Source: Gemmatimonadota bacterium (GTDB lineage Bacteria; Latescibacterota; UBA2968; UBA8231). Taken from it: 38,466 nucleotides of DNA. A program made the position numbers. Of this stretch, positions 24,001-27,000 are shown one piece after another. Numbering within the stretch: the first letter of the stretch is position 1; every line of letters begins with the position of its first letter. The DNA is taken from NCBI GenBank assembly GCA_038128265.1, contig JAYPJE010000041.1, positions 1 to 38,466 of the forward strand, given 5' to 3'.

Positions 24001-27000
24001 CTCGCTGGCCGAGGCGCTACAAGCGGGGCCGGTCGTCTTTGATTTCTGGGCGACTTGGTGCAAGCCATGTATCAAGGGGCTGCCCAAGATGCAAGCGGTA
24101 GCCAGCGCCTATGAGAAGCGGGGCGTGCAGGTGCTGACGATCAACGTCGATGGTCCGCGCAACCGACCCAAGGTGCGCCCTTTTATGCAGCGCTACAAAA
24201 TCGACCTGCCCGTTTTGCTCGACGATACAAACGAGGTATTGCCATTGTTTCACCTGGCGGGGGTGCCGGCTTCGTTGATCATAGCATCCGATGGAACGGT
24301 GTTTTACAAGCACGAGGGCTATCGGCCTGGAGACGCGGATAAGCTCAGGGAAAAGCTGGACGAATTGTTGATTCTTGAGGAGAAGTAAACCATGCGCATA
24401 ATACGAGTTATTCTAGCCTCGGTTCTAGTGTCCACGCTGGCTGTTGCCCAGTCGCGGGTGGGCGAACCGGCGGCTGATTTCACGCTGCAGTCGTTGGAAG
24501 GGGATGCGGTTTCCCTAAGCGATTTTAAAGGCCAGGTGGTGTTCATTAACTTCTTTGGCTTTAACTGACCCTTCTGTATCGCGGAGGCCGCGAAAGTAGA
24601 AAATATCTGGCGTGAGTTTGCCTCAGATCACTTCCAAACCATCGGCTTGGACATGTATGATGGTCGGGTCGATCAGGTGCGGATTCAGTTTAAAGAGAAT
24701 ACCGGAACGACGTATCCCCTGCTATTAGAAGCCAGCTCGGTTGGGCCGCTATATGGTCTTGGGCGCGACTTTTATATGGTGATCGACCACCGTGGAATCG
24801 TGCGCTACCGCACCACTGACGGCGTCGGTCTGGGCGCGCGCTTTGATGAGGCCAGCATTCGCGCGGCGATTGCAGAGGCGTTAGACGAACTGGCCCAGGA
24901 GCAAGCGGCCGCTACGGCCGTAGCGGAAGAAGAGGGCGTGCCGGATGCCTTTGGATGGATGATCAACTATCCCAACCCGTTCAACGCCAGCACGGCCATT
25001 CACTTTAACTTGGCACAGGCCAAACCAGTTACGCTGGACATCTACGATGTGCGGGGCCAATGGGTCCGGCGCCTGTGGCATGGACCGCTGGAAGCTGGAG
25101 AGCACCAAATGCACTGGGATGGACGCGATGATCGGGGATTTGCGGCAGCGACCGGTACCTATCTGGGCTGGCTCCGATCCGCCGAAGAGACCCAAGTGCA
25201 GAAAATGCTGCTTCTGCGCTGAGCGAACGCCTGATCATATTGTTTAACTTCACGAGATCGAAGTGAGTAGACCATGGAAAAGTTGCCCATTAGCGCAGCC
25301 GTACGACGCCTTACACAAGCGGAAGTAGAACAATTTGACGAATGGGGCTATGTGCAGGGCTTGCCGGTGTTCGATGCCGCAGCCGTTCCCCATTTGCAGA
25401 AGCGGCTGCACGAACTCGAAGCAGGCATGCCAGACGACGTGCCGATCAGCTCGGTCAATATGTGGCATAAAGCCAATCGCTGGATTTACGACCTCGCCCG
25501 CACTCCGGCCATCTTGGACTATGTAGAAGATCTGATTGGCCCCGATTTTTTTCAGTGGGGTGGCGGTTTCTTTGTCAAGTATCCCGGCGAGGGTAACTTT
25601 GTTCCCTGGCATCAAGACTCACAGTATTGGCCGCTGTCGCCGCGTAAAACCATTACCGCGTCGCTGGCATTTTACGACGGCACGCGCGAAAACGGCGCCA
25701 TGCAGGTCCTGCGCGGTAGCCATCGTTTAGGGCAGATTCCCCACCACGACGTAGCCGGCGAGGAGTATATGCTGGGCCAGGAGATAGATGCCGATCGAAT
25801 CGACGAGAGCCAGGCCGTTGCCATCGAGCTCAAAGCAGGCGAAATCTCGCTGCACGACGAAGCGCTGGCGCACGGCTCTGGGCCCAATGGCGGCGCCGCG
25901 CCCCGCGCCGTGCTAACCATGCGTTTCAGCCCAACCGAAGTCAAAGCAGATCTCGGCGTGTGGCCTACGTTCGAAAGTTCGATGGCGCGTGGAGTGGATC
26001 GCTATCGGCACAATCCGGAGGCAAAAATCCCCACCGGCGATAACTGTCCCGTGCGCAGTTTTCAGCTCTCTGCCGAATTTGCCTGAGCGGTTTAAGTAGA
26101 CCGGGCTTGGTGCCAATAGGACAGGTTTGATGCCGCGGATTGACGAACGCACGCATTATTTTTCGCCAGAGCGACCTCTGTGATGGACGACGCGATTAAC
26201 AGCGCGCGCAGTGAATGGGACGATCGCGTCGATTGGCCTACGGTCACGGTAATCATCGTTACCCGCGATCGCCACGAAGCGGCCGAAAAGGCCGTCGCTT
26301 CGGTTTTGGGGGTCGACTACCCGGCCGAAAAACTGGAAGTCGTCGTGGTCGAAGAGACGGATCAGCCGCAGCCCATTGCCGGTGACCGCATCCGCTATGT
26401 AGCGATTCCGATGCGCAACCTCGGTCTGGGTTTTGCGCGCAACCAGGGCGTCAAGCACGCGGGTGGAGCGGTGTTGGCCTTTACGGACGACGACTGTTTG
26501 GTGCATCGCAACTGGCTGCGCGAATTGGTGGGGCCGCTGTTTGCGGAAGGCGTTGCGGCAACGGCCGGTGCCGTGTTGGTGCCCGCCTGCGGTCCGGTGG
26601 GAGAGTGCGAGAATATTCTCGGTTTTCCGGGAGGGGGCGTGAAGTTTGTAGAGCAGGCGAGAGGCAAGACTGTGCCGCGCGAGACCTTTTCCACCTGCAA
26701 CTGTGCGGTATACCGCTGGGCTGTAGAAGAGGTGGGTGGTTTTCGCGAGTTTAATAGGTCGAGCGGTGAAGACGAACTGCTCAGTCGACAGATATCATCT
26801 CGTCATACGCTGCTGTATACGCCGCATGCCATCGTCTGGCACGAGCCTCGCGACCGCATCGGTAAAGTGTTCCACTGGCTCGTCCGCCGCGGCCACAGTC
26901 GCGTAGAAATGGCTCAGAACGTTTCCAACAAAAGACAGCTCTATGGCAAAATGGTCGTCCAATCGCCCACCGTGCGGTTGGCCCTGGGCACGCTGGCAGG

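What a model noticed while it worked through the whole genome (the two positions that open the first line are those of the whole stretch)
24392..25222. Secreted UxxC selenoprotein redoxin with a T9SS sorting domain, truncated in public gene calls
One gene of 276 codons reads through an in-frame TGA (C41:24566-24568) as selenocysteine in the motif U-P-F-C of an AhpC/TSA (TlpA-like) redoxin. The protein has a signal peptide and a C-terminal T9SS sorting domain, so it is predicted to be an exported, surface or extracellular selenoprotein. Standard gene calls split it.
Evidence so far: Read-through translation. Pfam gives AhpC-TSA 1.3e-15, Redoxin 2.5e-11, FlgD_ig 1.8e-12 and Por_Secre_tail 1.4e-4. 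In 41 family genomes, every listed match covering the redox motif has exactly 1 in-frame TGA, and one also has a TAG. The TGA aligns in U-[PS]-x-C in 11 further copies from 10 of the 11 relatives' loci. A hairpin is conserved 13-28 nt after the UGA. The upstream paralogue g2547 has Cys at that place, WCKPC. SelA is at C26:11884-13275 and SelB at C23:44103-45983. 39 of 40 database homologues cover only the part after the Sec codon.
(Added by a program. Inside this text positions count along the whole contig: contig position 1 is position 1 of the stretch shown here. "Call 12" and the like, gene names such as g00115 and contig names such as C1 are that model's own, and its searches are not shown. 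The text may have been shortened before it was handed on; [...] marks where a part breaks off. The agent that wrote the report below was given it as the finding of a first reader that could run no searches.)

Follow-up and report, generated by a model that had tools for sequence, protein, structure and literature searches.

The report
Exported selenocysteine redoxin, T9SS tail
This is a real but routinely mis-annotated gene for a selenium-containing redox enzyme that carries export signals, so it probably works at or outside the cell surface of an uncultured sediment bacterium.

Summary
ORF 24392-25222 (+) has one in-frame TGA at 24566-24568, in the motif F-N-U-P-F-C. It reads as signal peptide + TlpA/ResA-like thioredoxin fold + helical linker + T9SS type A C-terminal domain.

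Evidence that the TGA is selenocysteine:
- 115 of 119 homologous copies in 168 Latescibacterota genomes carry exactly one TGA. So do 25 of 45 copies in 86 Calditrichota genomes. In every copy examined residue by residue, the TGA aligns at U-x-x-C.
- A hairpin with a G-rich loop starting 18-23 nt after the U of UGA occurs in 79 of 86 Sec genes and 10 of 33 Cys genes. The Sec genes carry 41 distinct hairpin sequences.
- SelA, SelB and a Sec-containing SelD are present. tRNA-Sec is missing only because the assembly holds 19 tRNAs in all. It is found in 48 of 61 genomes of the family.

Export by a T9SS is still inferred. SprA and PorU are present, but GldK/L/M were not detected.

UxxC thioredoxin-fold selenoproteins are a known kind. 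What is new is the export tail, the size of this unannotated family, and a neighbourhood with a DUF6029 outer-membrane barrel and a CxxC TlpA paralogue seen in four phyla.

The parts
24392..25222 (+). Whole selenoprotein gene. It has 276 codons including Sec59, and the terminal TGA stop is at 25220-25222.
   Evidence: The AlphaFold2 model has mean pLDDT 92.6.
24392..24448 (+). Predicted Sec-type signal peptide, residues 1-19: MRIIR, then a hydrophobic stretch, then A-V-A | Q.
   Evidence: Read directly from the translation. The model shows a low-confidence N-terminal helix at residues 2-13. No signal-peptide predictor was available.
24458..24823 (+). Thioredoxin-fold redoxin domain (AhpC-TSA/Redoxin, TlpA/ResA-like), residues 23-144.
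   Evidence: Pfam. Best Foldseek match is ResA 1su9 at E 5e-11. A profile search of PDB gives 2ls5 at 1.5e-27, 3kcm at 1.2e-22 and ResA at 1e-21.
24566..24577 (+). Redox motif U-P-F-C. The Sec codon TGA is at 24566-24568. The motif sits between strand 49-55 and helix 60-75.
   Evidence: The TGA aligns at this column in all 31 + 68 + 18 copies examined. Cys aligns here in 143 of 146 representatives.
24572..24601 (+). SECIS-like hairpin inside the coding sequence. Inner stem 24579-24584 pairs with 24588-24593. The apical loop AGG is at 24585-24587. An outer stem spans 24572-24576 and 24597-24601.
   Evidence: Centroid fold. Position-specific hairpin test and catalogue of stem sequences.
24848..24934 (+). 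Long helical, Ala/Glu-rich linker, residues 153-181.
   Evidence: Secondary structure of the AlphaFold2 model, helix 153-181.
24959..25219 (+). C-terminal beta-sandwich sorting domain (T9SS type A CTD / FlgD_ig-like), residues 190-276. It has NYPNPFN at its start, G-x-Y, and the ending KMLLLR.
   Evidence: TIGR04183 scores 27.9 bits against a cut-off of 23. FlgD_ig scores 47.5 bits. The model shows strands from 201 to 274. Conserved P194, N195, P196, G222, G255 and Y257. At least 50 ORFs in the genome carry a similar tail.
23873..24388 (+). Upstream CxxC paralogue, a TlpA/ResA-like redoxin with W-C-K-P-C and a signal peptide. Its stop codon lies 3 nt before the selenoprotein start, so the two are probably co-transcribed.
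   Evidence: A homologue lies beside the redoxin gene in 33 of 78 Latescibacterota loci and in all 6 Marinimicrobia loci.
22204..23772 (-). Divergently transcribed DUF6029 protein, 522 aa. It has a signal peptide and ends ...NRFF. It is predicted to be a large outer-membrane beta-barrel with an invariant Cys pair, C499 and C504.
   Evidence: Pfam DUF6029 at 1.4e-13. The AlphaFold2 model is all-beta with pLDDT 84.2. Foldseek matches usher pores, porins, AlgE and Wzi. It neighbours both Sec and Cys forms in four phyla.

Best explanation
The gene encodes a genuine selenoprotein. UGA59 is decoded as selenocysteine by SelB and tRNA-Sec. Decoding is directed by a short hairpin with a G-rich loop that lies inside the coding sequence, starting about 13 nt after the UGA.

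Sec takes the place of the N-terminal, nucleophilic cysteine of the CxxC motif of a TlpA/ResA-like thioredoxin-fold domain. This gives a U-x-x-C selenylsulfide/selenol-thiol redox centre.

The protein is exported through the Sec translocon by a cleavable signal peptide. It carries a type A T9SS C-terminal domain. It is therefore most likely passed on through SprA and released from, or anchored on, the cell surface by PorU.

There it most likely acts as a thiol-disulfide exchange catalyst, a reductase or isomerase. It is genetically coupled to a periplasmic CxxC TlpA paralogue and an outer-membrane DUF6029 barrel.

What is shown here: the conserved UGA, the Sec/Cys pairing, the hairpin, the Sec machinery, the fold, the domains and the neighbourhood. 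What is inferred: actual Sec insertion, actual secretion, the substrate and the electron source.
For: 1. Conserved UGA.
- Latescibacterota: 115 of 119 listed matches, in 87 of 168 genomes, have exactly one TGA.
- Calditrichota: 25 of 45 listed matches, in 35 of 86 genomes.
- All 68 + 18 distinct TGA copies examined align it at U-x-x-C, with conserved protein sequence on both sides down to 30% identity.

2. Cys homologues.
- 143 of the 146 representatives that span the motif have C..C there.
- 99 share the subfamily motif [FLIVMY]G..C..C.
- 39 of 40 scanned proteins of 199-300 aa also carry Por_Secre_tail and/or FlgD_ig.
- All 7 matches in Marinimicrobia and all 28 in the phylum of G172 are Cys forms.
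- Sec and Cys forms interleave on a rough tree, with 11 changes.

3. Hairpin. The test asked for an uninterrupted stem of at least 5 bp with a 3-5 nt loop starting at +18 to +23.
- Sec genes: 61 of 68 plus 18 of 18.
- Cys genes: 2 of 4, 2 of 13 and 6 of 16.
- Synonymous recodings: 21-25% for the Sec gene sets and 9-20% for the Cys sets. Displaced windows on the Sec sets: 10-12%.
- The 86 Sec genes carry 41 distinct hairpin sequences, and 39 of the 41 have a G in the first two loop positions.

4. Sec machinery.
- SelA, SelB and SelD all score above cut-off, and SelD has its own TGA at CG-U-AAK.
- 85 of the 86 genomes with a TGA copy have SelA. All 5 SelA-less genomes of the own family lack the gene.
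- tRNA-Sec is found in 48 of 61 genomes of the family.

5. TGA is otherwise a stop. The gene itself ends on TGA.

6. Fold. Mean pLDDT is 92.6, U59 sits at the N-cap of helix 60-75, and the best structural matches are ResA and TlpA-like proteins.

7. Export.
- TIGR04183 scores above its cut-off.
- SprA scores 593 bits against a cut-off of 200, and PorU 657 bits against 420, with a PorV-like gene next to PorU.
- In other families the same Sec domain is fused to Ig-like repeats plus an EF-hand/dockerin-like end. In the same genus it is fused to a beta-lactamase-like domain plus the CTD. Both are architectures typical of extracytoplasmic proteins.
Against: - There is no direct evidence of Se incorporation, of expression or of secretion.
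- tRNA-Sec is absent from this assembly, which is 84.5% complete.
- Plain folding energy is unremarkable. The single sequence gives z = -0.64. Against synonymous recodings the median z is -1.08 and -0.62, with only 15 of 68 and 1 of 18 genes at p <= 0.05.
- The hairpin is built from conserved codons, and some Cys paralogues keep a hairpin (L092, L094, L198).
- Pfam Por_Secre_tail is below its gathering score in this protein, at 22.5 against 27 bits.
- GldK gives only weak hits below cut-off. GldL and GldM give none, and the PorV-like gene scores 172 bits against a cut-off of 250.
- The family lacks the cis-Pro that aligns in 3kcm.
- No reductant is known that could recycle a redoxin outside the outer membrane.
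- Related genomes are not independent, so the counts overstate the evidence.
Confidence: 0.8

Rival explanations
1. The protein is a true selenoprotein but stays in the periplasm. On this reading the C-terminal beta-sandwich is only an Ig-like or anchoring domain. No complete T9SS operates in this organism.
For: - GldL and GldM were not found, and GldK gives only weak hits.
- The PorV-like gene scores below its cut-off.
- Pfam PF18962 is below its gathering score in this protein.
- TlpA/ResA relatives normally work in the periplasm, and a DsbD-type electron importer is encoded at C3:80101-80739.
Against: - SprA and PorU are present above their cut-offs.
- At least 50 ORFs of the genome carry the same tail.
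- TIGR04183 scores above its cut-off.
- Relatives score clearly on PF18962, for example 33.9 to 56 bits.
- The GldL and GldM searches rang in no control genome, so they cannot show absence.
- In other clades the tail is replaced by another extracellular-type module.
Confidence: 0.2
2. The enzyme is a selenol peroxidase, working like a GPx or a peroxiredoxin, that detoxifies peroxides at the cell surface. It is not a protein disulfide reductase or isomerase.
For: - The best Pfam family is AhpC/TSA.
- AhpE and Bcp peroxiredoxins are among the structural matches.
- The thioredoxin cis-Pro is not conserved.
- From general knowledge, Sec resists irreversible over-oxidation. That would suit an enzyme that cannot be repaired outside the cell.
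Against: - The peroxiredoxin motif PxxxTxxC is absent. The sequence is I-N-F-F-G-F-N-U.
- No Arg is invariant or nearly invariant among the conserved columns of A2.
- The two-residue spacing of U-x-x-C and the N-F-[FW]-G context match TlpA/ResA.
- The best sequence and structure matches are ResA and TlpA-like oxidoreductases.
Confidence: 0.2
3. The TGA is a real stop, or a pseudogene lesion. On this reading the locus holds two separate small genes or a dead gene.
For: Standard gene callers split the locus, and public databases hold only the 3' part.
Against: - The 26 codons between the TGA and the next possible start (24569-24646) are conserved in frame in all homologues.
- Exactly one TGA sits at the same column in 140 listed copies from two phyla.
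- The two halves alone would cut a thioredoxin fold at its active site.
- Cys occupies this column in homologues.
Confidence: 0.02
4. The UGA is read through as some other amino acid, such as Trp, Gly or Cys by near-cognate or recoded decoding. It is not read as selenocysteine.
For: tRNA-Sec was not found in this assembly.
Against: - TGA ends this very gene, and DUF6029 homologues in relatives also end on TGA.
- SelA, SelB and SelD are present.
- The hairpin tracks the TGA forms.
- The aligned residue in homologues is Cys at a redox site, the classical Sec/Cys pattern.
- tRNA-Sec is present in relatives, including 4 of the 7 other genomes searched in the genus.
Confidence: 0.03

Closest known systems
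Prx-like thiol:disulfide oxidoreductase (PF00578, UxxC) and thiol-disulfide isomerase-like (cd02966, UxxC) selenoprotein families. Both are listed in the table of the 2026 review PMC13188914 and in the tables of the Sargasso Sea paper PMC1088965. Only passages and tables were read.
   Same: - Bacterial selenoproteins predicted by bioinformatics.
- AhpC/TSA-type thioredoxin fold.
- A thioredoxin-like U-x-x-C motif rather than the peroxiredoxin T-x-x-U.
- Cys homologues are widespread.
   Different: - The passages read describe no T9SS or dockerin-type tail, no Latescibacterota or Calditrichota members and no DUF6029 link.
- The review holds 0 occurrences of 'secret', 'signal peptide', 'periplasm' or 'Latescibacter'.
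- A direct sequence comparison with their reference proteins could not be made, so membership in the same family is open.
ResA (Bacillus subtilis) and TlpA-like extracytoplasmic thiol-disulfide oxidoreductases. PDB entries 1su9, 1st9, 4nmu, 3kcm and 2ls5.
   Same: - The same fold. Foldseek gives E 5e-11 and TM up to 0.87 on the target. The profile search gives E 1e-17 to 1e-27.
- The redox motif is in the same place.
- Extracytoplasmic location.
   Different: - Sec replaces the first Cys.
- NCBIfam ResA scores 49.6 bits against a cut-off of 170.
- The cis-Pro is not conserved.
- There is an extra linker and a sorting domain.
- There is no link to cytochrome c maturation genes in the window.
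HBP35 of Porphyromonas gingivalis (PMC2907840 and PMC3120885, abstracts only).
   Same: A T9SS (Por secretion system) cargo that combines a thioredoxin-like motif with a conserved C-terminal domain. By those abstracts it reaches the cell surface and has thioredoxin activity.
   Different: - HBP35 uses Cys and binds haem.
- It belongs to a host-associated Bacteroidota species.
- No sequence comparison was made here, so the likeness is one of architecture only.
Etrx1/Etrx2, surface-exposed thioredoxin-family lipoproteins of Streptococcus pneumoniae (PDB 4hqz, 2yp6, 4hqs).
   Same: They are TlpA-like thioredoxin folds exposed outside the cytoplasmic membrane. They are among the matches.
   Different: - Cys enzymes.
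- Lipid-anchored in a Gram-positive envelope.
- Their role and electron source are recalled from memory and were not tested here.
Extracytoplasmic selenoproteins SaoB and SaoC of the SAO system (preprint 10.1101/2022.07.06.499078, passages only).
   Same: Selenoproteins with signal peptides that are exposed to the extracellular milieu and are typically truncated in databases.
   Different: - Different folds: ABC substrate-binding and small CC/CU proteins.
[quoted passage not shown]
- CU motifs are proposed to bind metals.
- No T9SS.

Membership tests
Bacterial selenoprotein gene | In-frame UGA conserved at one column among homologues | tested here: met
   51 of 51 listed matches spanning residue 59. 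115 of 119. 25 of 45. Aligned at U-x-x-C in every copy examined.
Bacterial selenoprotein gene | Homologues with Cys aligned to the UGA | tested here: met
   143 of 146 representatives. Cys forms occur in Calditrichota, Marinimicrobia and the phylum of G172.
Bacterial selenoprotein gene | SECIS-type hairpin just 3' of the UGA with G in the apical loop | tested here: met
   79 of 86 Sec genes against 10 of 33 Cys genes. 41 distinct hairpins, 39 with G in the first two loop positions. Plain folding-energy tests are weak. The consensus rule for bacterial SECIS is recalled, not taken from a call.
Bacterial selenoprotein gene | SelA, SelB and SelD in the genome | tested here: met
   553, 356 and 355 bits, all above cut-off.
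Bacterial selenoprotein gene | tRNA-Sec in the genome | tested here: inconclusive
   Not found in G000. The best hit, 43.2 bits against a cut-off of 47, is a tRNA-Ser. The assembly has only 19 tRNAs. tRNA-Sec is found in 48 of 61 genomes of the family.
Bacterial selenoprotein gene | Selenium shown in the protein | not testable with these tools
   This needs 75Se labelling or mass spectrometry.
TlpA/ResA-like thiol-disulfide oxidoreductase | Thioredoxin fold with C/U-x-x-C at the N-terminus of the first helix | tested here: met
   Strand 49-55, U59, helix 60-75. Matches to ResA and TlpA-like proteins.
TlpA/ResA-like thiol-disulfide oxidoreductase | Conserved cis-Pro loop facing the active site (feature recalled from memory) | tested here: not met
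   By alignment only. The 'GVPETFVID' of 3kcm aligns with the family consensus 'tydrllViD', which has no Pro. 2ls5 also lacks it.
TlpA/ResA-like thiol-disulfide oxidoreductase | Curated model score | tested here: not met
   NCBIfam ResA subfamily scores 49.6 bits against a cut-off of 170, and TlpA 26.9 against 230. The broader Pfam families AhpC-TSA and Redoxin are passed.
Peroxiredoxin (AhpC/Prx/BCP) | PxxxTxxC/U peroxidatic motif and conserved Arg | tested here: not met
   The sequence is INFFGFN-U, with no Pro at -7 and no Thr at -3. No Arg appears among the invariant or nearly invariant columns of A2.
T9SS type A cargo | N-terminal signal peptide plus C-terminal type A sorting domain | tested here: met
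   Signal peptide by reading the sequence. TIGR04183 scores 27.9 bits against a cut-off of 23. The model shows a beta-sandwich at 201-274. Pfam PF18962 reaches only 22.5 bits against 27.
T9SS type A cargo | T9SS machinery encoded in the genome | tested here: inconclusive
   SprA and PorU score above cut-off. The PorV-like gene scores 172 bits against 250. GldK gives weak hits only. GldL and GldM give none, in searches that rang in no control genome.
T9SS type A cargo | Secretion and CTD cleavage shown | not testable with these tools
   This needs fractionation or proteomics in a T9SS-proficient host and in mutants.
Prx-like thiol:disulfide oxidoreductase selenoprotein family (literature) | PF00578 domain with a UxxC motif | tested here: met
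   The family is described.
Prx-like thiol:disulfide oxidoreductase selenoprotein family (literature) | Sequence relatedness to its reference members | not tested
   The reference sequences named in the review were not available through the tools.

The most novel reading that the evidence does not exclude
Three proteins form one conserved, envelope-spanning redox module of anaerobic FCB-group bacteria: the Sec (or Cys) redoxin with its export tail, the periplasmic CxxC TlpA paralogue, and the DUF6029 outer-membrane barrel with its invariant C-x4-C pair. The module carries thiol-disulfide chemistry to the cell surface or to extracellular substrates. Selenocysteine was recruited repeatedly because a selenol works fast and survives oxidation where no repair system can reach. 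This would be the first selenoenzyme secreted by a T9SS.
Probability: 0.2. Interest if true: 0.75.

Novelty: new variant of a known kind. Interest (0 to 1): 0.55.

Why it matters
Gene callers cut every Sec form of this family at the active site. As a result, 140 listed copies in two phyla are filed as shorter products, of which only a few carry a name and those read 'hypothetical protein'. The selenoproteomes of Latescibacterota and Calditrichota are therefore under-counted.

If the export signals work as they read, selenium chemistry is used outside the bacterial outer membrane. The bacterial selenoprotein reviews consulted here say nothing about such a site.

The natural Sec/Cys pairs within one phylum give matched enzymes for asking what Sec buys in an extracellular setting. 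The conserved DUF6029 and TlpA partners offer a concrete route to the function of an uncharacterised barrel family.

Tried and rejected
- **Single-sequence folding.** Folding 24560-24640 gives z = -0.64, which is not informative.
- **Folding energy against synonymous recodings.** The test is weak: median z is -1.08 and -0.62, with 15 of 68 and 1 of 18 genes at p <= 0.05. I replaced it with a position-specific hairpin test.
- **Rfam on the window.** No family reached its gathering score.
- **ARAGORN.** It finds no tRNA-Sec. Its odd 92-nt 'tRNA-Asp' on C5 has a poor acceptor stem and is not tRNA-Sec.
- **Collecting Cys-form DNA with the search for related loci.** The alignment A1 was not conserved enough. 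The single protein P0053 brought in 80 loci, of which 79 matched only the sorting domain. I collected Cys-form DNA through the genome search instead.
- **Apparent in-frame stops in DUF6029 homologues.** All but one were the genes' own terminal stops, because my query included its stop codon. The exception is an in-frame TAG aligned to query residue 104 in L088. DUF6029 is not a selenoprotein.
- **Expression.** No RNA holder is listed among the public runs, so nothing can be said on expression.
- **Complex prediction for DUF6029 with the redoxin.** I did not re-send it, so binding is untested.
- **GldL and GldM searches.** They rang in no genome, controls included, so they cannot show absence.
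- **Literature.** Searches for selenoprotein + 'type IX secretion' found 1 irrelevant paper. Latescibacteria + 'type IX secretion' found 0. Selenoprotein + Latescibacteria found 3 papers, 2 of them listed, and neither was opened.
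Full report
**The observation**

On the + strand an ORF starts at 24392 and ends at a TGA at 25220-25222. It holds one earlier in-frame TGA at 24566-24568, which is codon 59. Table 11 splits it into ORFs of 58 and 191 aa. Read through, it gives 276 residues with the motif F-F-G-F-N-U-P-F-C.

NCBIfam adds a hit to TIGR04183, the T9SS type A sorting domain, at 27.9 bits against a cut-off of 23.

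Contigs of four public runs from four studies cover the TGA without any other letter there. One is a variant contig with 12 differences elsewhere. One of the runs may be the source sample. The TGA is therefore not an assembly error.

**Is the TGA selenocysteine?**

Four classical criteria were tested.

1. *Conservation of the TGA.*
   - In 61 genomes of the same family, all 51 listed matches that span residue 59 carry exactly one TGA. A further 2280 matches were not listed.
   - With the redoxin part alone as query, 87 of 168 genomes of the phylum have a match at E <= 1e-15. Of the 119 listed matches, 115 carry one TGA and 4 carry none. Source names identify the phylum as Candidatus Latescibacterota.
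   - The form is not confined to that phylum. In 86 genomes of the phylum of a Calditrichota genome, 35 genomes have a match. Of 45 listed matches, 25 carry one TGA and 20 carry none.
   - I kept tblastn matches that span residues 55-70 and removed identical 120-nt stretches. That left 72 copies from Latescibacterota (68 TGA, 4 Cys) and 31 copies from the second locus set (18 TGA, 13 Cys; one of the Cys copies, L193, comes from the Marinimicrobia genome G170). Every TGA aligns at U-x-x-C, with conserved residues on both sides down to about 30% identity.

   - Among 149 of the best 150, 146 span the motif and 143 have C..C aligned to U..C.
   - 99 share the subfamily signature [FLIVMY]G..C..C, and 72 of those are 240-300 aa long.
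   - Of 40 such proteins of 199-300 aa scanned against Pfam, 39 also carry Por_Secre_tail and/or FlgD_ig, the same architecture as the window's protein.
   - Their sources call them 'redoxin domain-containing protein' (Marinimicrobia), 'T9SS C-terminal target domain-containing protein' (Calditrichota) or 'peroxiredoxin'.
   - All 7 matches in 121 Marinimicrobia genomes are Cys forms. So are all 28 matches in 301 genomes of the phylum of G172, an Ignavibacteriaceae record.
   - On a rough FastTree tree of 125 ingroup rows, Sec and Cys forms interleave and need 11 changes. The metagenomic Cys rows are biased, because gene callers truncate the Sec forms.

3. *The hairpin.* In the window, UCGCGG-AGG-CCGCGA lies at 24579-24593 and is extended by an outer stem at 24572-24601.
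   - Folding energy alone is unimpressive. The single sequence gives z = -0.64. Against synonymous recodings the median z is -1.08 and -0.62.
   - A position-specific test is clear. It asks for an uninterrupted stem of at least 5 bp around a 3-5 nt loop that starts 18-23 nt after the U of UGA. This is met by 61 of 68 and 18 of 18 Sec genes. It is met by 2 of 4, 2 of 13 and 6 of 16 Cys genes. Synonymous recodings of the Sec gene sets meet it in 21-25% of cases (9-20% for the Cys sets), and displaced windows on the Sec sets in 10-12%.
   - The 86 Sec genes carry 41 different hairpins. Their stems are unrelated, for example UCGCGG/CCGCGA, GGACG/CGUCC, CUCUCG/CGAGAG, GCUGCC/GGCAGC, UGCUGU/ACAGCA, CGGUUG/CAACCG and UAUCCG/CGGGUA. 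The encoded residues change with the stems: AEAA, TGPS, SRAE, AAGGS, AVGNS, VGPT.
   - 39 of the 41 have a G in the first two loop positions. This is structure kept through sequence change, at the place and with the loop make-up that I recall for bacterial SECIS elements.
   - Three Cys paralogues (L092, L094, L198) keep a hairpin. That would fit recent Sec-to-Cys changes, but I did not test this.

4. *Machinery.*
   - SelA (553 bits), SelB (356 bits) and SelD (355 bits) are all above cut-off.
   - SelD itself has a TGA in the motif C-G-U-A-A-K, so it is a second selenoprotein gene in the genome.
   - tRNA-Sec was not found. However, ARAGORN finds only 19 tRNA genes in the 84.5%-complete assembly. 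In the family, tRNA-Sec scores above Rfam's cut-off in 48 of 61 genomes, including 4 of the 7 other genomes searched in the genus.
   - Of the 86 genomes with a TGA-bearing copy, 85 have SelA. The exception, G104, is 80% complete. The five SelA-less genomes of the own family all lack the gene.
   - Relatives are not independent, so none of these counts is a probability.

**What the protein is**

The AlphaFold2 model, built on a 76-row alignment, has mean pLDDT 92.6. Its parts are:
- a signal-peptide helix;
- a thioredoxin fold at residues 21-150, with U59 between strand 49-55 and helix 60-75;
- a long helix at 153-181;
- a beta-sandwich at 201-274.

The best structural and sequence matches are ResA, TlpA-like proteins (2ls5, 3kcm, 4nmu) and, further off, AhpE and Bcp peroxiredoxins. 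The peroxiredoxin motif PxxxTxxC is absent, and the context N-F-F-G-x-x-U-P-x-C mirrors the TlpA/ResA motif. One departure is that the cis-Pro aligned in 3kcm is not conserved in this family. No curated NCBIfam selenoprotein model covers the protein.

**Export**

- The N-terminus reads as a Sec-type signal peptide, by inspection only.
- The tail has the conserved NYPNPFN, G-x-Y and K-M-L-L-L-R features of the alignment.
- The genome encodes SprA (593 bits against a cut-off of 200) and PorU (657 against 420). A PorV-like gene lies beside PorU, at 172 bits against 250. At least 50 ORFs carry similar tails.
- GldK gives only weak hits, and GldL and GldM give none. The last two searches rang in no control genome. 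The complement is therefore partial or divergent, and secretion remains an inference.
- Domain swaps give independent support for an extracytoplasmic role. Two orthologues in the same genus are 639-aa fusions of Sec-redoxin, a beta-lactamase-like PF00144 domain and the CTD. In other families of the class, the Sec-redoxin is followed by Ig-like ASH/HYDIN/DUF1573 repeats and an EF-hand/dockerin-like end instead of the CTD.

**Neighbourhood**

- A CxxC TlpA-like paralogue with its own signal peptide ends 3 nt before the gene.
- Divergently transcribed is a DUF6029 protein that ends in ...NRFF. It is predicted to be a large all-beta outer-membrane barrel (pLDDT 84.2). Its matches to usher pores, porins, AlgE and Wzi are generic. 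It has an invariant Cys pair at C499 and C504.
- DUF6029 lies beside the redoxin gene in 45 of 78 Latescibacterota loci (several of them duplicates), in 21 of 32 loci of the second set, and in 12 of 12 loci from the two other phyla. This holds for Sec and Cys forms alike. The 1.5-kb flanks limit detection.
- The only paper that names DUF6029 suggests a Wzi-like role in polysaccharide export (PMC9603273, passages only).
- A DsbD-type membrane electron carrier is encoded elsewhere in the genome.

**Mechanism proposed**

- Shown here: a UxxC centre on a TlpA/ResA fold, export signals, and coupled partners.
- Inferred: SelB reads the hairpin while the ribosome is at UGA59. The pre-protein crosses the inner membrane by the Sec pathway, folds in the periplasm, and leaves through SprA. 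PorU then removes the CTD.
- Also inferred: outside the cell, or while still in the periplasm, the selenolate attacks disulfides. C62 resolves the mixed selenylsulfide.
- The electron source is unknown. The periplasmic CxxC paralogue, fed by DsbD, is the obvious candidate only as long as the protein is in the periplasm.
- A peroxidase role is the main functional rival.

**Comparison with what is known**

- UxxC selenoproteins on Prx-like or TlpA-like folds have been predicted since 2004-2005 and are tabulated in a 2026 review (PMC1088965 and PMC13188914, passages and tables only). The kind is therefore known.
- A T9SS cargo with a thioredoxin motif is also known: HBP35 of P. gingivalis (abstracts only). 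Extracytoplasmic selenoproteins have been proposed too: SaoB and SaoC (passages only).
- I found no combination of the two in print. Selenoprotein + 'type IX secretion' gave 1 irrelevant paper. Latescibacteria + 'type IX secretion' gave 0. The review has no occurrence of 'secret', 'signal peptide' or 'periplasm'. Supplementary tables of these papers were not opened and could list members of this family.

**Verdict**

This is a real selenoprotein gene and a new variant of a known kind. It is of moderate interest. It exposes a large, systematically truncated family. It points to selenium chemistry at the cell surface. It also comes with a conserved three-gene module that can be tested.

Noticed in passing
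window 22204-23772 (-): DUF6029 is predicted to be a large outer-membrane beta-barrel. It has an invariant Cys pair, C499 and C504, in a C-x4-C hairpin. It neighbours this redoxin family in four phyla, which makes it a possible substrate or anchor of the redoxins.
   Followed up: partly
L067:1501-3417 (+) and L065:64-1980 (-): Two orthologues in the same genus are 639-aa fusions of Sec-redoxin, a beta-lactamase/PBP-like PF00144 domain (E 6.8e-64) and the T9SS tail.
   Followed up: partly
L096:1946-3280, L104:300-1274, L106:468-1799, L109:68-2377: In other families of the class, the Sec-redoxin is followed by one to five Ig-like ASH/HYDIN/DUF1573 repeats. It then ends in an EF-hand/dockerin-like D-x-D-x-N-G-x-V-D-F motif instead of a T9SS tail. 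These copies are often in tandem.
   Followed up: partly
G000:C18:70299-71222 (-), locus L008: SelD of the window's genome is itself a selenoprotein, with TGA in the motif C-G-U-A-A-K.
   Followed up: yes
L092 (Cys copy at 359-1684), L094 (1078-1779), L198: Three Cys-form paralogues that sit next to or near Sec forms still carry a hairpin at the SECIS position. One has a compensatory pair. They may be recent Sec-to-Cys conversions.
   Followed up: no
window 24563-24605: In public metagenome unitigs, contigs break at this stretch and summed depth rises there. This probably happens because the hairpin/AEAA stretch is identical among strains and paralogues.
   Followed up: no
window 25274-28021 (+): Two PhyH-family dioxygenase genes flank a family-2 glycosyltransferase just downstream. 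The PhyH neighbour appears only in the closest relative's locus, not in the others examined.
   Followed up: no
G000:C5:73982-74073: ARAGORN calls a 92-nt 'tRNA-Asp' with a weak acceptor stem and a long extra arm. It is probably a false call. The whole assembly holds only 19 tRNA genes.
   Followed up: partly
G042:C124, G052:C6, G048:C1, G018:C1, G054:C105: In one genus of the family, tRNA-Sec lies about 2 kb from selA.
   Followed up: no
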